Origin: Naegleria gruberi
Taxonomy: Eukaryota
DNA: 64,000 nucleotides
Assembly: GCA_000004985.1 (NCBI GenBank)
Contig: GG738895.1
Direction: 5' to 3' (one strand)
Below the pieces are notes generated by a model. The model saw only the letters and a list, made by a program, of their open reading frames with translations, made no database searches and had not been told where the DNA came from. The translations under genes and the position numbers were made by a program. Each line of letters starts with the position of its first letter. Position 1 is the first letter of the stretch. This document shows, in pieces, positions 25,446 through 61,418 of the stretch.

Positions 25446-26779
25446 CTAATTGTTTTTTATAGAAGAGTAACACTCGGTCGTGTAATATAGTTGATCTATA
25501 GCCTCACTAAATCCTCTTTCTTCAAAGCCTTCCCCTACAATCCAGTGAACATAAGCTCTCTTGCTATACATCTTATCAAATTGTAGAGCAAGGTTATTAA
25601 GATAACTTGTTATTGAACTGGTATTGTTGGCAATGTGCATTACATTTTTAAAATGGAAAGAGGTTGGATGAATATTTACAGGTGCCTTTCTTGATATTTG
25701 ATATTGAGCTTGTTCATTGTTGTAAGTTTTGAGTACTTTCGAAAGAGAATCAGTATGATGATGTGAAAAATCTCCTCTCATTGATGTGTTCATTGCTATG
25801 GAAACTCCATCAGCCTTATTAACACTATTCAAAGAGGATTTTTTTGAAAAGAGATCCTTAATATTGAATTCAGTACTGGATGTATCTTGCAAGTTTACAA
25901 AACTATTAGATATTATATTAGTTTCGGCTGTTACACCCAAATAATCAATGACATTATTTAAACTTCCTTCATTTGAGAATCTAATCTGAGATGTTAATGT
26001 TGAAATACTTTGTGAAATTAAATGATTCATGTCCTTGAAATTAGGATTCTCAATTCCACACTCCACACAAGCATCCAATAGTGAACAATTATCAAATGCA
26101 AATATACATTTCATTCTATCATAAATATAATTCAAGCCAATAACTGAATTGTAAGTATCCAACATTGAAGTAGAATAAGTTGCACCTGGAAAAACAGTAA
26201 AGGTTGACTCGAAACATTATCTCAATATTCAACATGAAACTCTCACAAACCTACCATTGGTAATTTAAATTCATTTGCCAAACCCCAGACAATACGAGAG
26301 GTTGATCCAGATCCAGTTCCTCCACCAAGTGCTTGAGTAATCAATATACTCTCCACTGAATCACATCGTTCCAGCATTTTCCTAACTCTCTCCTCAATAT
26401 AATTAATTTCACAAGATGACATTGAAAAATAGCCTTTACCAAAGTTTGAGGCAGCATCTTCATTACCACATATTATATTTTCCTCCTTAAATTGAACATG
26501 CAATTGATGATCATTATGCAATGAACTTTGTAGTTGTTGGGGATCGGAATCAAAGAATAAACATCGAGGATGATAGACATTCTCCACTCTAATGGATTCA
26601 TCATATAAACATGATAGATTATTAATTTGTGGATCATTGTGGATATTGCTATTTTCTAAAAGTGAATTAGTGTTGTTGTTGTTGGATTGTAATCCGTGTT
26701 CATCGGCAAATAATTGCCAGAGATCAGTGCCGATCTGAGTTCCGCAATTACCAATATGCAAAAATATCAATTCTTTCAT
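25446..26779 (-). CDS. Highly divergent tubulin-family protein (alpha-like); 2 exons (26255..26779, 25446..26207)
   Basis: MKELIFLHIGNCGTQIGTDLWQLFADEHGL, GNEDAASNFGKGY, ALGGGTGSGSTS and YVHWIVGEGFEERGFSEA all align with tubulin landmarks. The 47-nt intron 26208..26254 (GTAGGT...CGAG) gives KLPM|STFTVFPGATYS, compared with tubulin IMNTFSVVPSPKVS. Confidence 0.8.
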
Positions 26780-26920
26780 TTTTTTTTTAAATATTAAATA
26801 TTTTAAATACAATAATTGTAATGTCCTTAATATTTAAAGATGTATTTTGTCAAGTGTTGAAGTTCTCTTGAACTTTGATCTTTAAATAGATTTTGAAAAA
26901 AACAATTTTCAAAAAAAAAA

Positions 26921-27832
26921 ATGATTCAATTCTTGGATCCAAATGTTGTGCAATTTGAAATTTTACCTCATCTCGATGATCGATCCGTTATTTCACTCCT
27001 ATCGACATGTAAAATTGTCAATCAGGTAATTTCTATTCCGGACTATATCGAAACAAAATTGAAAATAATGGATGAAGAAATTTTGAGTCAGAAATTCAAT
27101 GAGTTGGAACAAAGTCCAATCCAAGTGAATAGAATTAATGAAATATTTAGATTAGCATATTTGAATTTTAGAGAAGGAATGTTTCAAACTGAAAAGCAAT
27201 TGTTAGGAACAGTTAAAGTGGATGAGGCACAATGTTATGGAAAATTGAAATCTCAATATACTCTTTTGCAGAGATATGTTTTCAAGAATTCCGACAAATT
27301 ATCACCACACTGTAATAGGAGTGTTTTTTCAGGTTCAACAGGATTTTGGAATTCTCATAGTGTTGATTTTAAAATCTCAAAAGAGAATACTGTATATTAT
27401 TGGTCCATTGTCCTTACAGCATTTGATCGTAAGATATCAAATAGCTGGGCAATACTTGTAGGTTTTGCTGAAGAGGATGCTGCCTCATCATTATCTAAAA
27501 GCTGGATTCCATCTGGATATTGTGTCAAATCAAATGCAATACTTGAAAATAGTTATACATCATACACAGAGAGCCTTGTGAATACGGAAGGAGATGTCAT
27601 TGGAATTGAGTGCTATGTCCAAAACAAAACAGTCTATTTCAATGTTTACTCTCCTTCGAGGAACCATCAGACCTTTCAATTCAAATCTGTGAATAGTAAT
27701 ATAGTACCAATGGTATCTATGGTACACTCTCAATCACTCCAATTACTTTCATTACTTCCGTGGGATGGGCATGTGGAAAGCTTGAAATCCTTTGGAGAAT
27801 GTGCAACAAGGATTTGTACAGCAGAAGAATGA
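26921..27832 (+). CDS. F-box-like + SPRY-like domain protein (copy 1 of an inverted pair)
   Basis: The N-terminus reads VQFEILPHLDDRSVISLLSTCKIV (F-box-like). The C-terminus reads YYWSIVLTAF...WAILVGFAEE...GDVIGIECYVQNKTVYFNV, which fits the SPRY core pattern. It is about 89 percent identical in protein to 52502..53413 (-). Confidence 0.7.
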   Translation: MIQFLDPNVVQFEILPHLDDRSVISLLSTCKIVNQVISIPDYIETKLKIMDEEILSQKFNELEQSPIQVNRINEIFRLAYLNFREGMFQTEKQLLGTVKVDEAQCYGKLKSQYTLLQRYVFKNSDKLSPHCNRSVFSGSTGFWNSHSVDFKISKENTVYYWSIVLTAFDRKISNSWAILVGFAEEDAASSLSKSWIPSGYCVKSNAILENSYTSYTESLVNTEGDVIGIECYVQNKTVYFNVYSPSRNHQTFQFKSVNSNIVPMVSMVHSQSLQLLSLLPWDGHVESLKSFGECATRICTAEE

Positions 27833-27966
27833 TTTTATTGTTTGAAGAATTAAATTTCAAACAATAAATTACTATTCTATTATTGATGGATATCCAATGA
27901 TGATGTTCACTGAATATCAATGTTTTCCAGTATTGAAACCTTGATCTCTTTTTTACAACAAAAAAA

Positions 27967-31800: not shown

Positions 31801-31874
31801 TGCCTCCCTTGGGAATCGAACCCAAGACCTCTGTCTTACTAGGACAGCGCTACTGCCAACTGAGCTAGGAAGGC
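31801..31874 (-). tRNA. tRNA-Thr (anticodon AGU)
   Basis: The reverse complement GCCTTCCTAGCTCAGTTGGCAGTAGCGCTGTCCTAGTAAGACAGAGGTCTTGGGTTCGATTCCCAAGGGAGGCA folds as a cloverleaf. The anticodon loop is CUAGUAA. A T-run lies downstream. Confidence 0.95.
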
Positions 31875-33611: not shown

Positions 33612-34388
33612 ATGCAACAAGATCAAGAAGATGCCACAATAGTTTTCCTGCATGATTTCGCTTTCTATAACCAAAATTCTTCCTCGGAATACTTGGTCAA
33701 TCTCTTGAAGAAAAACCTGTCAAGGCCAAGGACAAGATTTAACATGAAAAAAGTTGACAGTTTCCAAGATTTGGAATTGAGAGAAGATTTACTACGAGGA
33801 GTGTATGGATATGGATTAAAACAATTATCAGAAATTCAAACTAAATGTATCATGCCAATAATATCATCCGAACCACCACTAGATGTTGTTTGCATTTCAA
33901 GCTCGGGGACTGGAAAGAAAACTGCATTCTCAATTGCTCTTCTCCAAAGAATAGACTTGGATCATCAAGCGTACTCTAAAGGAGCACCTCAAGCTCTAGT
34001 TATTACACCTACGAGAGAAATGAGTCAAGTCATTTCTAATCACATCAAGAAATTGGCTCATTATTTGGATGTCAAAGTATTACCTTTCCATGGAGGAGTT
34101 TCAACCAAAGAAACAATCCAAGCTCTAAATGAAATTCAACATGTAGTTGTTGGAACAAACAAATTGATGGACTTAATCAGGTTTAAAGTTTTGAATTTGA
34201 AATATTTGAAACTGATAATAATTGACAGAACAGGTTGTGATTGGCTCGACATGTATGATCAACAGATTTTGAGAATTATCAATGCATCAAACAAATTCAA
34301 CCTTCAAATATGTGTCTTTGGCGATTCGAGAAATATAGGATCGATTGAACAATATCTGAAAGATCCAATTTATTGTGAACTGGAGTAG
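33612..34388 (+). CDS. eIF4A-like DEAD-box helicase domain 1 only, with degenerate catalytic motifs (pseudo-helicase, copy 1)
   Basis: The protein is collinear with eIF4A RecA domain 1. The Q-motif region is FQDLELREDLLRGVYGYGL..LSEIQ. Walker A is SSSGTGKKT, and PTREMS replaces PTRELA. VVGT is present. DEAD is replaced by IIDR and SAT by VFG. It ends at the DPI...E domain boundary. Only ~295 nt remain before the next gene, so no domain 2 can be encoded. Confidence 0.7.
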   Translation: MQQDQEDATIVFLHDFAFYNQNSSSEYLVNLLKKNLSRPRTRFNMKKVDSFQDLELREDLLRGVYGYGLKQLSEIQTKCIMPIISSEPPLDVVCISSSGTGKKTAFSIALLQRIDLDHQAYSKGAPQALVITPTREMSQVISNHIKKLAHYLDVKVLPFHGGVSTKETIQALNEIQHVVVGTNKLMDLIRFKVLNLKYLKLIIIDRTGCDWLDMYDQQILRIINASNKFNLQICVFGDSRNIGSIEQYLKDPIYCELE

Positions 34389-34683: not shown

Positions 34684-35775
34684 ATGGGAAACAATCAACA
34701 ACCCACATCCCAACCACCAGTTTTAAAAGATGGCGCTCTTCCGAGTGTTAGTACTCCATCATCAGCATGTTATGAACGCACATTAATGCAAGAATATTTT
34801 CCTAATAATTGTAAATTAATTCGAGTTTGTGATCATGATGAAGAAAATCGAAGGAAACAAGAGGAGAATTTGAAGAATTATCGGGAGAAATACTTGTCTC
34901 GATGTAATGGAATATTGGAGAAGATGTTACCTGAGGAAATTATTGTTGAAATTTTGTATTACTTGCCAATGAAGAGTTTGATCAAATTACAAATGGTTTC
35001 AAAGAATTTTCGCTTGTATTGGACTGAACTTCCTGGATTGTGGGATAAATTTTCAGATTATCCCAAAATGATGTATATTCCAATGGTATACGAAAGTATG
35101 AGAAGTAATTTTGGATATTATAATGAATTTAGACAAAAATTAATTAATTTACATGAAAAGCCAACACGAAATTTTGATTTTACTGGATATCAATACAAAG
35201 CCATCGTTTTGGGAGATAAAAAGTGTGGGAAAACCATTTTGCATAACAGAGTCTTCAAAGGCGAACCATTTTCTCAAGAATATGTCTATACGATCGGAGT
35301 AGATTTTTCTACCACAATTTCCAAACAAAACATATACATTCAATCTTGGGATACAGGTGGAGATGAAAGATTTAGAACAATTAATATCAATTTCTTTAGG
35401 GGTATGAAAGGCCACTTTTACTGCTTTGATTTGAATAATCACGAGTCATTTGAAGTAATGAAGGACATTTTTCAAGATTGGAAGAATGTATATCTCAAAG
35501 GTGAAGACCTTAGTTCATATTTTACTAAGATTTCATTCGCATTGGTGGGATTGAAATCAGATTTGGAACGCAAAGTATCAAGAGATGAAATTCATGAATT
35601 CTTGGAAAATATTGAACCACTGAAGGATAAGACTTTGCACACCAGTAGAGTCCAATACTTTGAGTTGAGTTCTAAAGAAGATTCAATTTCAGATTTACTT
35701 TTTCCATTTGTCTATAGTTATCATAATGTAATGGAAATACCAAGGCAATATTCAACAAGTATAAGTGAAATGTAA
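34684..35775 (+). CDS. MG-start + F-box + Rab-like small GTPase fusion protein (copy 1)
   Basis: The N-terminus is MGNNQQ. The F-box reads LPEEIIVEILYYLPMKSLIKLQMVSKNFRLYW. The GTPase motifs are G1 GDKKCGKT, G2 YTIGVDF, G3 WDTGGDERF, G4 GLKSDL and G5 ELSSKE. There is no C-terminal Cys. Confidence 0.75.
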   Translation: MGNNQQPTSQPPVLKDGALPSVSTPSSACYERTLMQEYFPNNCKLIRVCDHDEENRRKQEENLKNYREKYLSRCNGILEKMLPEEIIVEILYYLPMKSLIKLQMVSKNFRLYWTELPGLWDKFSDYPKMMYIPMVYESMRSNFGYYNEFRQKLINLHEKPTRNFDFTGYQYKAIVLGDKKCGKTILHNRVFKGEPFSQEYVYTIGVDFSTTISKQNIYIQSWDTGGDERFRTININFFRGMKGHFYCFDLNNHESFEVMKDIFQDWKNVYLKGEDLSSYFTKISFALVGLKSDLERKVSRDEIHEFLENIEPLKDKTLHTSRVQYFELSSKEDSISDLLFPFVYSYHNVMEIPRQYSTSISEM

Positions 35776-39818: not shown

Positions 39819-39898
39819 GCAGGGGTTCCCGAGTGGTCAAAGGGGTAGACTCAAGTTCTACTGCGCAAGCTTCGTGGGTTCAAATCCCACCTTCTGCA
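39819..39898 (+). tRNA. tRNA-Leu (anticodon CAA), long variable arm
   Basis: GCAGGGGTTCCCGAGTGGTCAAAGGGGTAGACTCAAGTTCTACTGCGCAAGCTTCGTGGGTTCAAATCCCACCTTCTGCA. All stems pair, the anticodon loop is CUCAAGU, and a T-rich tract lies downstream. Confidence 0.9.
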
Positions 39899-52501: not shown

Positions 52502-53413
52502 TCATTCTTCTGCTGTACAAATCTTTGTTGCACATTCTCCAAAGGATTTCAGGCTTTCCACATGTCCATCCCACGGAAGTAATGAAAGTAATTGGAGTGA
52601 TTGAGAGTCTACCAGAGATACCATTGGTACTATATTACTATTAACATATTCGAATTGAAAAGTCTGATGGTTCCTCGAAGGGGAGTAAACATTGAAATAG
52701 ACTGTTTTGTTTTGGATATAACATTCAATTCCAATGACATCTCCTTCAGTATTCACACTGTGCTCTGAGTATAATTTATAACTACTTGTAACTGTTGCAT
52801 TCGATTTGATACAATAGCCATATAGAATCCATTTATCATATAGTGATGAGACAGCATCCTCTTCAGCAAAACCTACAATTATTGCCCAGCCATTTGATAT
52901 CTTCCAATCATAAGCTGTAAGTACTATGGACCAATAATATATAGTATTCTCTTTTGAGATTTTAAAATCAACACTATGAGAATTCCAAAATCCTGTTGAA
53001 CCTGAAAAAACACTCCTATTACAGTGTGGTGATAATTTGTTAGAATTCTTGAAAACATATCTCTTTAAAAGAGTATATTGAGATTTCAATTTTCCATAAC
53101 ATTGTGCCTCATCCACTTTAACTGTTCCTATCAATTGCTTTTCTGTTTGGAACATTCCTTCTCTAAAATTCAAATATGCTAATCTAAATATTTCATTAAT
53201 TCTATTCACTTGGATTGGACTTTGTTCCAACTCATTGAATTTCTGACTCAAAATTTCTTCATCCATTATTTTCAATTTTGTTTCGATATAGTCCGGAATA
53301 GAAATTACCTGATGGACAATTTTACATGTCGATAGGAGTGAAATAACGGATCGATCATCGAGATGAGGTAAAATTTCAAATTGCACAACATTCGGATCCA
53401 AGAATTGAATCAT
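52502..53413 (-). CDS. F-box-like + SPRY-like domain protein (copy 2 of an inverted pair)
   Basis: The A-tract+ATG at 53413 is the same start as copy 1. The protein is 303 aa with the same stop context (CTAEE*). See 26921..27832. Confidence 0.7.
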   Translation of the reverse strand: MIQFLDPNVVQFEILPHLDDRSVISLLSTCKIVHQVISIPDYIETKLKIMDEEILSQKFNELEQSPIQVNRINEIFRLAYLNFREGMFQTEKQLIGTVKVDEAQCYGKLKSQYTLLKRYVFKNSNKLSPHCNRSVFSGSTGFWNSHSVDFKISKENTIYYWSIVLTAYDWKISNGWAIIVGFAEEDAVSSLYDKWILYGYCIKSNATVTSSYKLYSEHSVNTEGDVIGIECYIQNKTVYFNVYSPSRNHQTFQFEYVNSNIVPMVSLVDSQSLQLLSLLPWDGHVESLKSFGECATKICTAEE

Positions 53414-53581
53414 TTTTTTTTTGAAAATTGTTTTTTCATAGATCAAAGTTCGTTTTTTGTTTTTTACAATGAACAGTTTTTTGTTATAATTTTTAAATAG
53501 TGAATGGAAAAATTACAACAATTTAAGGAGCTAGCCCAAATGTTTACAACATAACACAATAATTTGAAAGTTTTTAAAAAA

Positions 53582-55018
53582 ATGAAAAAAGTTAAAAAAG
53601 TTAAAAAAGTTAAAAAATCGAAAACTGTCAAGTCATTGGCAGTTGAAGATCAAGTGGTCATACAGGCTGGCCTGTTAGCACCGTTATCATCATCGGATGT
53701 TTTGTTTTATCAAATATTACCATGCTTTCCATTAAAATTGTTATTCGAAACAGCAAGATTAGTTTGTAAAGAATGGAATTTATTTATTGTGGGAAATCAT
53801 AATGATGCTGGTCATGTAAAAGAATATTTTACAGGTCGGTACTCTCTGATCATTCCCCGTGAAAAAGAAGAATCTCTGATGACTTGTATTCGTGCTGGAT
53901 ATTTCCGAAATATAATTCAAAAATTACATTTCAAAGCTTTTGATTCATTTTGTAATCCTTCTATTGTTAGAAACTCAGGAGTGATTGAAATGGTTCCACA
54001 AATTAGTTCAACTTTATTGGATGATTCTTTTCCAAATGTTGAGGAAATTATTATTGGAACTGTCAATTCAGATTCTTGTATTATAAGAGAGGGATTTTGT
54101 AAAAACAAACTGGAAAAGTTGAAATTGTTGAAGATGACCATGCAAAGGGACGTGTCAATTTCTGATATATTTTCATGTGATTTTATGCAAAATTTGACAT
54201 GCTTGAATTTGGATAACTGCTTTATTGATTATACAACAGTTTTACAAATTAGTGAATGTCCACTGAAGAACTTGGAGAAATTGTGCTTAGGATATAATTC
54301 AATAACTCAATTGGGAGCTCTTACATTGTCCAAAAGCAAACATCTTTCAAAATTAACATATTTAGATTTGACTTATAATGACATTGGTGATGAAGGGCTT
54401 AGACATCTTTGTGAAAGTGAAACACTGTGTAATATTTCAAATCTATTATTGGAATTTAATGTAATTTCAGAATTGGAGCCTCTTTTACAAAGCTCCAATA
54501 TGAAAAATCTAGCACATTTGAATTTGTATAGATGTAGTTTGAATTTAAAAAGCTTTATGTCATTGATATCTTGCCCTAATTTACCAAAACTTTCAGAAAT
54601 TAGTCTATACCATGCAGGTTTAACAGGAATGCAAGAATTAGAAACTTCTCACATCATAGTATCCAACTCAATCAATCGACTTGATCTATCCTCTTGCAGT
54701 TTAGATGATTTGGGATTTAGGTGTTTGTTAAATTCCCTCAAATACGACTCCATTACTGAACTAAATCTTAGGTACAATGAAATTGGAAATGAAGGATTGT
54801 TGTGCCTAGCTGAATGTCCCTTCCTGACCAATTTGAGGATACTCGACCTATCTGGAAATCCAATAGATGATGAAGGTGCCCTCTACCTGGCACAAAACGT
54901 TCAATTTCCAAATATTAAGGAATTAATTTTAGAGTTTACCAAAATGACCAAAAATGGCAGTGAAAAATTTTCAGAAATTATTTTACAACGATTCCCAAAT
55001 GTTAATTTAACTATTTAA
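53582..55018 (+). CDS. F-box-like + RNI-type leucine-rich repeat protein with N-terminal (KKV)n tract
   Basis: First ATG at 53582. MKKVKKVKKVKKSK comes from a 9-nt DNA repeat. The F-box-like segment is FYQILPCFPLKLLFETARLVCKEWNLFI. It is followed by ~28-aa LRRs (LTYLDLTYNDIGDEGLRHL..., LRILDLSGNPIDDEGALYL). Confidence 0.7.
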   Translation: MKKVKKVKKVKKSKTVKSLAVEDQVVIQAGLLAPLSSSDVLFYQILPCFPLKLLFETARLVCKEWNLFIVGNHNDAGHVKEYFTGRYSLIIPREKEESLMTCIRAGYFRNIIQKLHFKAFDSFCNPSIVRNSGVIEMVPQISSTLLDDSFPNVEEIIIGTVNSDSCIIREGFCKNKLEKLKLLKMTMQRDVSISDIFSCDFMQNLTCLNLDNCFIDYTTVLQISECPLKNLEKLCLGYNSITQLGALTLSKSKHLSKLTYLDLTYNDIGDEGLRHLCESETLCNISNLLLEFNVISELEPLLQSSNMKNLAHLNLYRCSLNLKSFMSLISCPNLPKLSEISLYHAGLTGMQELETSHIIVSNSINRLDLSSCSLDDLGFRCLLNSLKYDSITELNLRYNEIGNEGLLCLAECPFLTNLRILDLSGNPIDDEGALYLAQNVQFPNIKELILEFTKMTKNGSEKFSEIILQRFPNVNLTI

Positions 55019-55099: not shown

Positions 55100-56207
55100 T
55101 CATTTTATTCTTGGTAATATTGTTAAAATTATATTTAAAAAGCCTTCAGTTTCAATATTGTTTGCATTGATATTGAGATCTGTTAACTGAGATAAGTGAC
55201 TCAATGATTTGGCACCTTCAGCACCAATATTATTTGTACTGATATTCAAAGTGGTCAATTTGCCTAGTTGACTGATATACATTGCTCCAGTGTTTCCAAT
55301 TTTAGAATAACTAATATTCAAGTCTGTTAATTGTGACATTTCGGATATAATTTTTGCCCCTTCATCTCCAATATAATTACAACTAATATTCAAATTATTT
55401 AAATTTTCCATTTGACTAATGAACTTGACTCCAACTACAGACAAATTTGGACAATTCGAAACATCAAGCTTTGTTAACTGTTTAATTTCACTAATTTTCT
55501 CTACAGATCTATCATTAAGATCAGAATATCTTACACGAAGTGATTTCAAAGTTTTTGATTGTGAAATAACATTCATCTGAAATGTTTCATCATTTTCTAA
55601 TGAAAATGCTGAATAACTCAAATCGAGTGAAATCAAATTTTTCATTCCAAATACAGAAAAAGATCCTGAATATCCAATACGATTGCTACATATATTCAAA
55701 CTAGTCAAGTTTGCCATTGTACTGATATGTTTAGCTCCTTCATCTCCAATTGAATTATAACTCAGATCAAGATTGGTCAATTGAGTCAAATTTTGAGAAA
55801 TTAATTGAGCTCCTTTCGTCCTAATTCTACAAACACTATTCCCAACAAGTTTCAATTCAACAATATTCCCAATAATTCCAGATTTAACAATATTTTCCAC
55901 AATTTTATCCTCAACCTCCAAATCAACAGAAAGTTTTGCCCTATTTTTGATTACTTCATGCCAATTACGAGAAATTAATAAACAACTTTGTATAATCATT
56001 GAAGAATCCAAAAAGGTAAGAATTTCATAACAAATATCATCAGGAAATACTTGATTTCGAAATTATTATATAAAAAATTACATAATTTTAGCAATTACAC
56101 TCACAATCAGGATTGGATTTCATTCCGATAGGTGCATCAATGGATTGTTTCATCTTTTTCCTATTAGAAAAATTATCATCATTTTCCCTTCTTTTTGTTT
56201 TTGACAT
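55100..56207 (-). CDS. F-box-like + 24-residue LRR protein; 2 exons (56105..56207, 55100..56049)
   Basis: Exon 1 has an A-tract+ATG and encodes the basic MSKTKRRENDDNFSNRKKMKQ...SNPD. A GTGAGT donor opens the 55-nt intron 56050..56104 (acceptor TCAAG). Exon 2 starts L-FPDDICYEILTFLDSSMIIQSCLLISRNWHEVI, followed by LRRs such as LTDLNISYSKIGNTGAMYISQLGK. Confidence 0.7.
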
Positions 56208-57322: not shown

Positions 57323-57395
57323 GCCCGTCTAGCTCAGTCGGTAGAGCGCAAGGCTCTTAACCTTGTGGTCGTGGGTTCGACCCCCACGGTGGGCG
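57323..57395 (+). tRNA. tRNA-Lys (anticodon CUU)
   Basis: GCCCGTCTAGCTCAGTCGGTAGAGCGCAAGGCTCTTAACCTTGTGGTCGTGGGTTCGACCCCCACGGTGGGCG folds as a cloverleaf. The anticodon loop is CUCUUAA. A T-rich tract lies downstream. Confidence 0.95.
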
Positions 57396-57695: not shown

Positions 57696-59141
57696 ATGTT
57701 CTCGAGAACAAGGGTTATTTTCAAAATAATAATAATAATAATAATTAATGAATTGCTAATAGAGAATATTATATTTTCGGATGATGTTTGTTTTGAAATT
57801 ATTTCCATGATTGATGATTCGTGGTTTATTTTGAATAATTGTTCTTTAATTTCAAAACAATGGTTTAATGTGATCAAGGATCGTTCAAAACTTGTTATTC
57901 AATTTAAAAAAAAATTAACAGAAAAAAGAGTTGAATTATTAATGAAAAGTCAATTCATGAACAGTATTGTAAATGTTAAGTTTTCTTTTGGGTTGCTTAA
58001 CTCTTCAGATAAACTTAAATTCATAAGTGAAATGAAACATTTAACATCACTTGATATTGCTGACAATCAAATTGGTGATGAGGGATCTAAATTCATAAGT
58101 GGAATGAAACATTTAACATCACTTAATATAGATCGCAATCAAATTGGTGTAGAAGGAGCCAAACTCATAAGTGGAATGAAATCATTAATATCACTTAGTA
58201 TTGGTGATAATCAAATTGGTGTAGAAGGAGCCAAACTCATAAGTGGAATGAAACATTTAACATCACTTGATATAAATCGCAATCAAATTGGTGTAGAAGG
58301 AGCCAAATCAATAAGTAGAATGAAACAATTAACATCACTTAATATATATTACAATCAAATTGGTGCTGAGGGAGCCAAATCAATAAGTGGAATGAAACAA
58401 TTAACATCACTTGATATTGGTGGAAATCAAATTGGTGTAGAAGAATCCAAATACATAAGTGAAATGAAACAATTAACATCACTTGATATATATAACAATC
58501 AAATTGGTGTAGAAGGAGCCAAATCAATAAGTGGAATGAAACAATTAACATCACTTAATATTGGTTTCAATCGAATTGGTGTAGAAGGATCCAAACTCAT
58601 AAGTGAAATGAAACAATTAACATCACTTAATATTGGTTCCAATGAAATTGGTGTAGAAGGGTCCAAATTCATACCTGAAATGAAACATTTAACATCACTT
58701 AATATATATTACAATGAAATTGGTGATGAAGGATCCAAATACATAAGTGAAATGAAACAATTAACATCACTTGATATATATTACAATGAAATTGGTGTGG
58801 AAGGAGCCAAATACATAAGTGAAATGAAACAATTAACATCACTTGGTATTAGTGATAATCAAATTGGTGTAGAAGGAGCCAAATTCATAAGTGAAATGAA
58901 ATTATTAACATCACTTGATATTGCTGACAATCAAATTGGTGATGAGGGATCTAAATTCATAAGTGAAATGAAATCATTAACATCGCTTAATGTTAATTCC
59001 AATCAAATTGGTGATGAGGGAGCCAAACTTATAAGTGGAATGAAACAATTAACATCACTTAAAATATATTACAATCAAATTGGTGAAACTTTATTAATGT
59101 CTGTTATATCAATAACAGCTGAGACCAAATCTTTAGACTAA
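57696..59141 (+). CDS. F-box-like + 24-residue LRR protein (14 full units plus one partial); 5' end uncertain
   Basis: FSDDVCFEIISMIDDSWFILNNCSLISKQWFNVI is paralogous to the 55100 gene, and is followed by a regular LRR array. The ORF-internal ATG at 57696 would translate an (AAT)7 microsatellite as poly-Ile. An alternative is ATGATGGAG (57665) + GTAAAA donor + intron to 57764. Confidence 0.65.
   Translation: MFSRTRVIFKIIIIIIINELLIENIIFSDDVCFEIISMIDDSWFILNNCSLISKQWFNVIKDRSKLVIQFKKKLTEKRVELLMKSQFMNSIVNVKFSFGLLNSSDKLKFISEMKHLTSLDIADNQIGDEGSKFISGMKHLTSLNIDRNQIGVEGAKLISGMKSLISLSIGDNQIGVEGAKLISGMKHLTSLDINRNQIGVEGAKSISRMKQLTSLNIYYNQIGAEGAKSISGMKQLTSLDIGGNQIGVEESKYISEMKQLTSLDIYNNQIGVEGAKSISGMKQLTSLNIGFNRIGVEGSKLISEMKQLTSLNIGSNEIGVEGSKFIPEMKHLTSLNIYYNEIGDEGSKYISEMKQLTSLDIYYNEIGVEGAKYISEMKQLTSLGISDNQIGVEGAKFISEMKLLTSLDIADNQIGDEGSKFISEMKSLTSLNVNSNQIGDEGAKLISGMKQLTSLKIYYNQIGETLLMSVISITAETKSLD
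58010..59090 (+). repeat. 72-nt coding tandem repeat array (LRR units xLTSLxIxxNQIGxEGAKxISxMK)
   Basis: There are 14 full units plus 1 partial unit. Long stretches are shared verbatim between units, for example atgaaacaattaacatcacttgatat and caaattggtgtagaaggagccaaa. Confidence 0.9.
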
Positions 59142-59287
59142 CTAAGATTCTTTGTAGGGATTTGGGTTTGTTGATATTAGGCACCGTACATTGTGTAAAG
59201 CTTCATTTATTTAACTACCTCAATATCTTAAAGTGTGGAGTATTGTGATTGAAACGTTGAAAGATGAGTTTACATAATTCAAACAAT

Positions 59288-60320: not shown

Positions 60321-61418
60321 TTATAGCATGGTTTTTAGAGTGGCAACAGCATAGAGGAATGGAAAGAGAAGGTCATCATCAGAGCACTCTTCTTTGGAGC
60401 TTAATTCAAAATATTGAACTTTGGTTGTGTGAATTGTTTTTTGTTGAGGCTCTGGCTCGACCATTTTTAGAAAATTGTAAATTTCAAGTCTTGTTACTTG
60501 ATGATCGAGATCTGATTTCAATCCGAGTAAGAGGAAACATCTATCATTGATATTGTAATCTGAAATATCTTTGACTGTCATTTCGTGATAAATTTCAATC
60601 ATTTCCTCAAATGATTTATGACTATTCAAATCAAAACAATACACAAAAACATTAGCTCTCGAATAAACAGATTTGAATAGCGATAGATATGTTTGATTTC
60701 CACATGTATCCCAAATCTTGAATGCAAATTCCGTCCCACTTCCATAAAGGTAATGCTTGTCAATTACTGGGAAAGTTATTGAGGGTGTATAATTTTCCGA
60801 AAATGGTAATTGATTAAAAGCTCTATCAATCAAAGTGGATTTACCACACCCTGATGACCCAACAAATATGTATTGGGCACATTGAGGCAATTCAACATCC
60901 TCATCTATTACAAATCTCTTCAGCAAGACATTTTTAACATTTTCATAACTTTCCATATCAGAAAACATGTACAACATTGGACTTTTTCTCCTCAAATCCT
61001 TCCACAGAACTTCAAATCTGGTCCAATACATTAAAAATCTCTTTGAAACTCGTTGCATTCTCCCTATACTTTCCATATCCAAAAATTGTAAAATGTGTAA
61101 AATTATTTCATGAGGAAAATTCGTCAACCAACCATCCTTCTCCTCACCCTGATTGAAATACTCATCATTGCCTCCATATCCTCTCCTAATTCCATTAAAA
61201 ATTCCTATCGGAAGCAATTCTACATCCGAAACAATAGTAGAAAGAATAGATTTCCTCTTGAATCCTCTTGGTAATTCCAACACGGGAAAATGTAGGGATT
61301 TTCCTGTAGAATAAAGTAAATTTTCAGATTGTTCACGGGAGGGGATTTTATTTTCATCTCTTGCTTGGTGATTCAGAGATGATGATGAGGGCGTCTCTGT
61401 TGATGTTTGTTGTCCCAT
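60321..61418 (-). CDS. MG-start + F-box + Rab-like small GTPase fusion protein (copy 2)
   Basis: MGQQTS fits the myristoylation consensus. The F-box reads FPHEIILHILQFLDMESIGRMQRVSKRFLMYW. The GTPase motifs are G1 GSSGCGKS, G3 WDTCGNQTY, G4 GLKSDL and G5 ELSSKE. There is no C-terminal Cys. Confidence 0.75.
   Translation of the reverse strand: MGQQTSTETPSSSSLNHQARDENKIPSREQSENLLYSTGKSLHFPVLELPRGFKRKSILSTIVSDVELLPIGIFNGIRRGYGGNDEYFNQGEEKDGWLTNFPHEIILHILQFLDMESIGRMQRVSKRFLMYWTRFEVLWKDLRRKSPMLYMFSDMESYENVKNVLLKRFVIDEDVELPQCAQYIFVGSSGCGKSTLIDRAFNQLPFSENYTPSITFPVIDKHYLYGSGTEFAFKIWDTCGNQTYLSLFKSVYSRANVFVYCFDLNSHKSFEEMIEIYHEMTVKDISDYNINDRCFLLLGLKSDLDHQVTRLEIYNFLKMVEPEPQQKTIHTTKVQYFELSSKEECSDDDLLFPFLYAVATLKTML

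What the first reader, a model, noticed from the sequence alone, without database searches (positions are those of the whole stretch)
26866..27832. Recent inverted duplication of an F-box/SPRY gene including its promoter (partner at 52502..53455)
The 303-aa proteins from 26921..27832 (+) and 52502..53413 (-) have identical length and are about 89 percent identical. The first 94 residues differ at a single position (N34H). Similarity continues about 55-65 nt upstream of both ATGs, in the blocks gaactttgatct and gaaaaaaacaattttcaaaaaaaaaaATG, with one ~10-nt indel between them. It stops immediately after the shared stop codon. The copies are about 25 kb apart in opposite orientation. This makes them a young duplicate pair and potential substrates for inversion of the intervening segment.
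Basis: seen in the sequence. Interest (0 to 1): 0.55.

Follow-up and report, generated by a model that had tools for sequence, protein, structure and literature searches.

The report
Young inverted gene duplicate in Naegleria
Two copies of one small gene for a probable ubiquitin-ligase substrate receptor (F-box plus SPRY-like domain) lie 25 kb apart in opposite orientation in the amoeba Naegleria gruberi; this is a real but ordinary recent gene duplication, in which one copy has changed faster in its likely substrate-binding loops.

Summary
26921..27832(+) and 52502..53413(-) each encode 303 aa. They differ at 31 residues (89.8% identity) and 56 of 909 coding nt (93.8%). Homology runs from an exact 12-mer at -51 (copy A) / -38 (copy B), across an 11-nt indel, to 1 nt past the TGA, and nothing beyond. 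It is the only long repeat in the window.

The window is Naegleria gruberi, and both genes are already annotated (copy A is NAEGRDRAFT_81123). The family occurs only in Vahlkampfiidae (Naegleria, Willaertia). The F-box passes Pfam's threshold only in the closest orthologue. The SPRY assignment rests on a sub-threshold Pfam hit plus an AlphaFold/Foldseek match.

dS(A-B) is 0.11, against about 1.9 to the nearest orthologue, so the duplication or last homogenisation is recent. Divergence is uneven: dN/dS is 0.08 in residues 1-94 and 1.13 in residues 158-219, the most variable SPRY loops. Polarised with the outgroup, copy B carries 15 derived residues and copy A 6.

Best reading: a gene-sized, post-speciation inverted duplication of an SCF-type receptor, with copy B diverging in specificity. 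A 5' gene-conversion tract is possible (p about 0.05). Inversion of the interval is untestable here. This is ordinary biology and of low interest.

The parts
26870..26881 (+). Distal shared upstream block of copy A (GAACTTTGATCT). This is the 5' limit of the homology.
   Evidence: Exact 12-mer found only here and at 53440-53451. There is no similarity further upstream.
26882..26894 (+). 13-nt insert specific to copy A (TTAAATAGATTTT). Together with the preceding T it forms a TATA-like TTTAAATA at about -40..-32. Copy B has only AT here.
   Evidence: Read from the sequence. Any function is inferred.
26895..26920 (+). Proximal shared leader of copy A (GAAAAAAACAATTTTC followed by A10).
   Evidence: Alignment. 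The A-run itself is generic in this genome.
26921..27832 (+). Copy A coding sequence, 303 aa, identical to NAEGRDRAFT_81123. It retains more of the ancestral state than copy B.
26939..27043 (+). F-box-like segment of copy A (aa 7-41).
   Evidence: Pfam F-box / F-box-like E 0.03 / 0.025, which is below threshold. The orthologue P0003 scores 24.2 bits against a cut-off of 20.5. Nine of 13 family members hit F-box-like. The AF2 model has three short helices at 7-36.
27275..27760 (+). SPRY-like beta-sandwich of copy A (about aa 119-280).
   Evidence: Pfam SPRY E 3.2e-4, 21.2 bits against a cut-off of 26.3. The AF2 model has pLDDT 70 and pTM 0.71. Foldseek top hits are SPRY domains of Ash2L, HERC1, MID2 and RanBP9/10 at E 7e-8 to 1e-5.
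27392..27577 (+). Fast-diverging segment, copy A side (aa 158-219). It holds 21 of the 31 amino-acid differences.
   Evidence: dN/dS is 1.13 here against 0.08-0.37 elsewhere. Fisher p=0.01 for N/S here against the rest of the gene. Copy A is 68% identical to the outgroup here and copy B 53%.
27834..27868 (+). A-only AT-rich hairpin that starts exactly at the 3' homology breakpoint.
   Evidence: MFE -14.7 kcal/mol, z=-4.85. The corresponding flank of B gives z=+1.0. Such hairpins are not general after stop codons here.
52502..53413 (-). Copy B coding sequence, 303 aa (annotated 'predicted protein', P0002). This is the faster-evolving copy.
52757..52942 (-). Fast-diverging segment, copy B side (aa 158-219).
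   Evidence: 15 of the 24 B-derived nucleotide changes lie here.
53414..53437 (-). Proximal shared leader of copy B.
53440..53451 (-). Distal shared upstream block of copy B (GAACTTTGATCT).

Best explanation
A roughly 0.95-kb DNA segment of Naegleria gruberi, holding one intronless gene and its proximal upstream 40-50 nt, was copied into a second intergenic site about 25 kb away in inverted orientation. This happened well after the split from the nearest sequenced relative. The gene encodes a Vahlkampfiidae-specific protein with an N-terminal F-box, a helical linker and a C-terminal SPRY-like beta-sandwich that ends in a conserved LPWDG.VE.LK motif. By architecture it is most likely the substrate receptor of an SCF (Skp1-Cullin-F-box) ubiquitin ligase: the F-box docks on Skp1 and the SPRY loops hold the substrate. 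Since the duplication, the F-box and linker have stayed almost unchanged, while the central SPRY loops (aa 158-219) have accumulated replacements at the neutral rate or faster, mainly in copy B. Copy B is therefore probably shifting or relaxing its substrate specificity while still plugging into the same ligase core. Shown here: the duplication, its limits, its relative age, the asymmetry, and the SPRY fold at moderate confidence. Inferred: Skp1 binding, the ligase function, substrate binding by the variable loops, and promoter function of the shared upstream blocks.
For: Age: dS(A-B) = 0.113, against dS(A-O) = 1.85 and dS(B-O) = 1.98 for the orthologue in L001. Only one close homologue exists outside N. 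gruberi among 5.8 billion proteins, and none was found in JGI metagenome contigs. Region-specific dN/dS is 0.08 (aa 1-94), 0.37 (95-157), 1.13 (158-219) and 0.19 (220-303); N/S in 158-219 against the rest gives Fisher p=0.01. Asymmetry: 24 B-derived against 12 A-derived nucleotide changes (Tajima p=0.046) and 15 against 6 residues. In aa 158-219, A is 68% identical to the outgroup and B 53%. In the family alignment the same segment is the most indel-rich part. A second N. gruberi pair of the same family (P0007/P0017, 97% identical) likewise has all its differences after residue 120.
Against: Neither copy reaches Pfam's curated cut-off for F-box or SPRY. The structure model is only moderately confident: pLDDT 70, with residues 90-116 below 50. 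A dN/dS of 1.13 is not significantly above 1, so relaxed constraint on B is as good an explanation as adaptive change. The 3' breakpoint lies exactly after the stop codon, and dS is about 3-fold lower in the 5' half (p=0.056). Both features are also what concerted evolution of an older pair would give. No expression or interaction data are available.
Confidence: 0.72

Rival explanations
1. The duplication is older, and the two copies are kept alike by ectopic gene conversion (concerted evolution). The apparent youth would then reflect the last conversion events, the most recent covering the promoter, F-box and linker (about -38 to +263).
For: Homology edges coincide with functional edges (the proximal upstream blocks and stop+1) while the flanks are unalignable. 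dS is 0.059 in codons 1-150 against 0.166 in codons 151-303, Fisher p=0.056. There is a 163-nt identical run at nt 101-263; P=0.0009 if the 56 differences were placed uniformly. No third-position difference occurs in codons 8-87. Two older inverted paralogue pairs lie in the same region: D1/D2 at 49% identity and R1/R2 at 36%. D1/D2 is nested inside A/B with near-mirror spacing, 6691 against 6853 nt.
Against: Even the more divergent 3' half has dS of only 0.17, against saturation to the outgroup. A conversion model therefore still needs the whole gene to have been homogenised recently. The synonymous-site test is only borderline. The uniform-placement test is confounded by purifying selection on the F-box. 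The P0007/P0017 pair shows the same invariant N-terminus, which points to constraint. Genes between A and D1 and between B and D2 share no similarity (best E > 0.1), so no large old palindrome is visible. The neighbourhoods of the N. fowleri and Willaertia family members contain no half-helicase gene.
Confidence: 0.2
2. Assembly artefact: the two copies are alleles or haplotypes of one locus, or a chimeric join.
For: None from the sequence. It is considered only because N. gruberi NEG-M is reported to be polyploid and heterozygous (my recollection of the 2010 genome paper, not checked here).
Against: The copies differ at 6% of sites plus promoter indels. Each is embedded in unique, gene-dense sequence on both sides (a tubulin-like gene and a 495-aa ORF for A; tRNA-Asn and an LRR gene for B). 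They are in opposite orientation within one contiguous stretch. A collapsed or split allele would share its flanks.
Confidence: 0.03
3. RNA-mediated duplication: copy B or A is a retrocopy of the other's mRNA.
For: The duplicated unit is gene-sized and intronless, and its 3' edge is close to the end of the ORF.
Against: There is no poly(A) remnant after either stop codon and no target-site duplication at the edges. The unit ends 1 nt after the stop, which would require an mRNA with no 3' UTR. The unit includes 38-51 nt upstream, and both copies have kept the same leader. The parent gene has no intron, so intron loss cannot be used as a test.
Confidence: 0.03

Closest known systems
Metazoan F-box/SPRY proteins FBXO45 / FSN-1 / DFsn (from my own knowledge: about 286 aa, an F-box followed by a SPRY domain, and a substrate receptor working with Skp1 and PAM/MYCBP2)
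   Same: Same size class and same domain order, F-box then SPRY. The same inferred logic applies: the F-box docks on Skp1 and the SPRY domain binds the substrate.
   Different: No detectable sequence relationship. An exhaustive HMMER scan of 1.84 billion representatives found only 10 proteins at E <= 0.001. The named ones are from Naegleria and Willaertia, and two are unnamed environmental sequences. The best structural matches are the SPRY domains of Ash2L, HERC1, MID2 and RanBP9/10, at 11-16% identity. The family has its own C-terminal LPWDG.VE.LK motif and a long helical linker. The architecture is most likely convergent rather than orthologous.
SPRY / B30.2 receptors whose variable loops set target specificity (TRIM5alpha, SPSB/GUSTAVUS; from my own knowledge)
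   Same: Replacements between the two copies cluster in loops of the SPRY sandwich (aa 185-197 and 210-225 in the model), and dN/dS there is about 1.
   Different: No positive-selection test with several species was possible. No ligand is known. The contact surface was not checked in 3D.
Young dispersed inverted gene duplicates with asymmetric divergence, and concerted evolution of paralogues (general phenomenon)
   Same: Gene-sized unit, low dS, one copy evolving faster, and a possible conversion tract.
   Different: Nothing unusual except the 3' breakpoint exactly at the stop codon and the hairpin that starts there in copy A.

Membership tests
F-box proteins (SCF substrate receptors) | An F-box motif of about 40-50 aa recognised by PF00646 or PF12937 above the curated cut-off | tested here: inconclusive
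   Copies A and B score 14.6-15.1 bits (E 0.02-0.03) against cut-offs of 20.5 and 24.3. The 61%-identical orthologue P0003 scores 24.2 bits and passes PF00646. Nine of 13 family members hit F-box-like, best E 5.7e-5. The family profile gives a weak hit to the F-box of FBXW11, E 0.48.
F-box proteins (SCF substrate receptors) | Three-helix F-box fold at the N-terminus | tested here: met
   The AF2 model has helices at 7-17, 20-29 and 31-36 with pLDDT 65-80. This is model-level evidence only.
F-box proteins (SCF substrate receptors) | Binds Skp1 and assembles with a cullin | not testable with these tools
   Needs co-IP or two-hybrid with N. gruberi Skp1.
SPRY domain (PF00622) | Sequence match above Pfam's gathering score | tested here: not met
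   A scores 21.2 bits (E 3.2e-4) and B 16.6 bits (E 8.4e-3), against a cut-off of 26.3. Five of 13 family members hit at E <= 1.
SPRY domain (PF00622) | Bent beta-sandwich fold superposable on solved SPRY domains | tested here: met
   Foldseek against the PDB: the top 20 hits are all SPRY or PRYSPRY domains (Ash2L, HERC1, MID2, RanBP9/10), E 7e-8 to 8e-6, probability 1.00, target-normalised TM 0.48-0.65. The model has pLDDT 70 and pTM 0.71, so confidence is moderate. Legume lectins, a related jelly-roll fold, appear from rank 21.
FBXO45 / FSN-1 orthologous group | Detectable sequence homology to the metazoan F-box/SPRY proteins | tested here: not met
   No hit outside Vahlkampfiidae or unnamed environmental sequences at E <= 0.001 in the exhaustive search. 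No solved relative was found by sequence.
Recent DNA-level gene duplicate | High nucleotide identity that extends into non-coding sequence, low dS, two intact ORFs and distinct flanks | tested here: met
Concerted evolution / ectopic gene conversion | Mosaic of significantly different synonymous divergence along the pair | tested here: inconclusive
   dS 0.059 against 0.166, Fisher p=0.056. The run test gives P=0.0009 but is confounded by selection.
Retrocopy | Poly(A) tract, target-site duplication and absence of upstream promoter sequence | tested here: not met
   None of the three features is present.
Inverted repeats that mediate inversion | Both orientations of the intervening segment exist in a population or clone | not testable with these tools
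   Only one assembly is available. Exact-protein look-ups of both copies found no other assembly.

The most novel reading that the evidence does not exclude
Copy B is being remodelled by positive selection in the SPRY substrate-binding loops. On this reading, this Vahlkampfiidae-only F-box/SPRY family (with a second 97%-identical pair elsewhere in N. gruberi) is a rapidly duplicating receptor set. It would be aimed at changing targets, such as proteins of intracellular bacteria or giant viruses of amoebae, in the way TRIM5-type SPRY receptors are in animals. The 0.94-kb inverted arms could additionally keep exchanging their 5' halves and occasionally flip the 24.7-kb interval.
Probability: 0.15. 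Interest if true: 0.4.

Novelty: new member of a known kind. Interest (0 to 1): 0.15.

Why it matters
It matters little beyond Naegleria genomics. It documents a clean, datable example of gene-sized inverted duplication in a compact protist genome. It also assigns a fold and a likely role (SCF receptor) to a lineage-restricted family that is so far annotated only as hypothetical. And it flags one copy as the faster-evolving one in its presumptive binding loops. If population or sister-species data later show selection or an inversion polymorphism, the locus could serve as a small model for receptor diversification in amoebae. As it stands it is ordinary paralogue evolution.

Tried and rejected
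Large old palindrome including D1/D2. This was considered because of the nested mirror spacing. It was rejected because the genes between the arms show no similarity and family members in N. fowleri and Willaertia have no half-helicase neighbour.

Synteny with the closest orthologue, to decide which copy is the parent. L001 shares only the gene itself with the window, so the parent copy remains undetermined.

Independent assemblies. Exact-protein look-ups of both copies returned nothing. A metagenome scan found no relative.

The 12-mer as a generic promoter motif. Its core is not enriched: 15 matches against 14.7 expected.

A hairpin after the stop codon as a general 3' signal. Only 2 of 28 genes have one with z below -3.

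Bacterial-type promoter and terminator scan. It was uninformative, as expected for a eukaryote.

Sequence search of solved structures. The single protein gave nothing meaningful. The family profile gave only a weak F-box hit.

The AFDB fold library was unavailable.

A literature search found no paper on this family or this pair.

Full report
OBSERVATION

26921..27832(+) and 52502..53413(-) each encode 303 residues and end in TGA. They differ at 31 residues (89.8% identity), and residues 1-94 differ only at N34H. At the nucleotide level the coding sequences differ at 56 of 909 positions. A local alignment runs from 26897 to 27833 against 53436 to 52501, with 93.9% identity and one gap. A repeat scan of the whole window finds this pair (936 nt, 93%) as the only long repeat apart from LRR arrays and two tRNAs.

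Upstream, an exact 12-mer GAACTTTGATCT lies at 26870-26881 and 53440-53451. These are the only two exact copies in 64 kb, and the shorter core of the motif is not enriched. Between the 12-mer and the shared leader GAAAAAA(A)CAATTTTC-A(9-10)-ATG, copy A has 13 nt and copy B has 2 nt. Further upstream and downstream, the alignment scores are no better than shuffles (z = 1.6 and 1.0-1.2).

The duplicated unit is therefore 26870-27833 in A and 53451-52501 in B. The shared upstream part is 51 nt in A and 38 nt in B, and the homology stops 1 nt after the stop codon. The A-run before the ATG is a general feature of genes in this window (17 of 22 putative starts have at least 8 A in -12..-1). It does not count as evidence of shared ancestry; the other two blocks do.

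IDENTITY

Copy A is 100% identical to NAEGRDRAFT_81123 of Naegleria gruberi. Copy B is a 'predicted protein' on the same 333,733-bp scaffold. The window looks like this compact eukaryotic genome: 33% GC, dense ORFs, six dispersed tRNA genes, and a tubulin-like gene with a short GT..AG intron next to copy A.

Among 5.8 billion proteins, only one further close relative exists: P0003, 59-61% identical, from a Logan assembly of SRR25266747. Its called start is probably 21 codons too early, because an A-run followed by ATGATTCAATTC, as in A and B, lies at the second ATG.

An exhaustive HMMER scan of 1.84 billion cluster representatives finds only ten proteins at E <= 0.001. The named ones are from N. 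gruberi, N. fowleri and Willaertia magna, and two are unnamed environmental sequences. The family is thus confined to Vahlkampfiidae as far as public data go.

DOMAINS

Neither copy reaches Pfam's curated thresholds. SPRY scores 21.2 bits in A and 16.6 in B, against 26.3. F-box scores about 15 bits, against 20.5 and 24.3.

Support comes from relatives and from the fold:
- The orthologue P0003 passes PF00646 at 24.2 bits.
- Nine of 13 aligned family members hit F-box-like.
- The family profile weakly matches the F-box of FBXW11.
- An AlphaFold2 model built on the 13-sequence alignment (pLDDT 70, pTM 0.71) has three short N-terminal helices, two linker helices, a beta-sandwich from about residue 119 to 280, and a C-terminal helix.
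- The best Foldseek matches in the PDB are SPRY or PRYSPRY domains: Ash2L, HERC1, MID2 and RanBP9/10, at E 7e-8 to 1e-5.

The label 'F-box plus SPRY-like' is therefore reasonable. Membership in the metazoan FBXO45/FSN-1 group is not supported, because there is no sequence relationship.

AGE AND MODE

Nei-Gojobori estimates for the pair are dS = 0.113 and dN = 0.052. Against the orthologue in L001, dS is about 1.9, which is saturated. The duplication, or the last homogenisation, is therefore far more recent than the split from the closest sequenced relative.

The neighbours of the orthologue in L001 do not match anything in the window, so the parent copy cannot be identified. Retroposition is unlikely. 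There is no poly(A) remnant and no target-site duplication, upstream sequence is included, and the unit ends 1 nt after the stop. An assembly artefact is also unlikely: the copies differ by 6%, have promoter indels, and sit in different, unique, gene-dense flanks.

PATTERN OF DIVERGENCE

Divergence is very uneven along the gene:

| Residues | dN/dS | Note |
|---|---|---|
| 1-94 | 0.08 | |
| 95-157 | 0.37 | |
| 158-219 | 1.13 | 26.5 replacement and 6.5 silent changes |
| 220-303 | 0.19 | |

The excess of replacements in residues 158-219 over the rest of the gene is significant (Fisher p = 0.01). In the model, this segment covers the loops at 185-197 and 210-225 and the short hairpin between them. 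In the family alignment it is the most indel-rich part.

Polarising with P0003 gives 24 B-derived against 12 A-derived nucleotide changes (Tajima test p = 0.046), and 15 against 6 residues. In residues 158-219, copy A is 68% identical to the outgroup, its best-conserved segment, whereas copy B is 53% identical. Copy B is therefore the one that has departed.

A dN/dS near 1 cannot separate relaxation from adaptive change. A second pair of the same family in N. gruberi (P0007/P0017, 97% identical, on two other scaffolds) also has an invariant N-terminal 120 residues, with all its differences in the C-terminal domain. This fits strong constraint on the F-box and linker.

GENE CONVERSION?

Synonymous divergence is 0.059 in codons 1-150 and 0.166 in codons 151-303 (Fisher p = 0.056). 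Nucleotides 101-263 are identical, and no third-position difference occurs in codons 8-87. The homology edges also coincide with the functional edges of the gene. These features are what ectopic conversion between an older pair would produce. However, the tests are borderline and are confounded by selection. Even the more divergent half is young relative to the outgroup. I keep this as the main rival (about 0.2).

CONTEXT

Two older inverted paralogue pairs lie in the same region.
- D1 33612-34388(+) and D2 45766-46560(-) encode only the N-terminal domain of a DEAD-box helicase and are 49% identical.
- R1 34684-35775(+) and R2 60321-61418(-) encode an F-box plus a Ras-like GTPase and are 36% identical.

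D1/D2 is nested inside A/B at nearly mirrored distances (6691 and 6853 nt from the A and B starts). However, the genes in between are unrelated, and the neighbourhoods of the N. fowleri and Willaertia family members contain no half-helicase gene. I therefore read this as repeated local duplication, or coincidence, rather than as one old palindrome.

In copy A, a perfect 13-14-bp AT-rich hairpin starts exactly at the 3' breakpoint (z = -4.85). Copy B has none, and such hairpins are not general after stop codons here. This remains unexplained.

INVERSION

The arms are 0.94 kb long and 94% identical, with identical runs of up to 163 nt. Recombination between them could invert the 24.7-kb interval. 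Nothing available here tests that: only one assembly is accessible, and a metagenome scan found no relative.

VERDICT

It is an ordinary young paralogue pair in an already annotated genome. This second look adds four things: the organism and the lineage-restricted family; fold-level support for the domain assignment; the asymmetric, loop-focused divergence of copy B; and a possible 5' conversion tract. Interest is low (0.15). Novelty: a new member of a known kind.

Noticed in passing
window 25446-26779 (-): A divergent tubulin-family gene (PF00091 E 2e-31 for the first exon) is split by a GT..AG intron of about 70 nt near 26166-26242. Its ATG is only 141 nt from copy A's ATG, on the opposite strand.
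   Followed up: partly
window 33612-34388 (+) and 45766-46560 (-): An inverted paralogue pair (49% identity) encodes only the N-terminal RecA-like domain of a DEAD-box helicase (258 and 264 aa), and the DEAD motif looks degenerate. The pair is nested inside the A/B pair at near-mirror distances (6691 and 6853 nt), although the genes in between are unrelated.
   Followed up: partly
window 34684-35775 (+) and 60321-61418 (-): A third inverted paralogue pair (36% identity) encodes an F-box fused to a Ras-like GTPase. In Willaertia magna a gene of this type lies directly next to the F-box/SPRY family member P0005 (L005 11006-12728).
   Followed up: partly
window 27834-27868 (+): A perfect 13-14-bp AT-rich hairpin (z=-4.85) begins exactly where the A/B homology ends. 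It is absent from copy B and is not a general feature after stop codons in this window.
   Followed up: partly
window 11303-11375, 31801-31874, 39819-39898, 45360-45430, 52314-52386, 57323-57395: Six dispersed tRNA genes (Ala, Thr, Leu, Gly, Asn, Lys) lie in 64 kb, each in a short intergenic spacer. tRNA-Asn ends 115 nt from copy B's stop codon, in convergent orientation.
   Followed up: no
window 57945-59180 (within ORF 57696-59141); also 53564-55018 and 55100-56011: A tandem array of 14 units of 72 nt (24 aa, leucine-rich repeat) with 80-86% identity between units. Two further LRR genes lie beside copy B.
   Followed up: no
window, upstream of most ATG starts: An A-rich leader: at least 8 A in positions -12..-1 at 17 of 22 putative start codons. 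It is also conserved at the orthologue's probable true start in L001 (4976-4985).
   Followed up: partly
P0007 / P0017 (N. gruberi, two other scaffolds): A second very young pair of the same family (97% identical, 326/336). The first 120 residues are identical and all differences lie in the SPRY-like part.
   Followed up: partly
L005 and L006 (Willaertia magna contigs JBEGDK010000142 and JBEGDK010000076): The family member P0005 is encoded identically on two contigs with the same neighbours over at least 20 kb. This indicates either haplotigs or a large recent segmental duplication.
   Followed up: no
window 53438-53411 (-): In copy B the promoter indel creates a small out-of-frame upstream ATG (ATGAAAAAACAATTTTCAAAAAAAAATGA) whose stop overlaps the main start codon. 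It is relevant only if transcription starts upstream of it.
   Followed up: no
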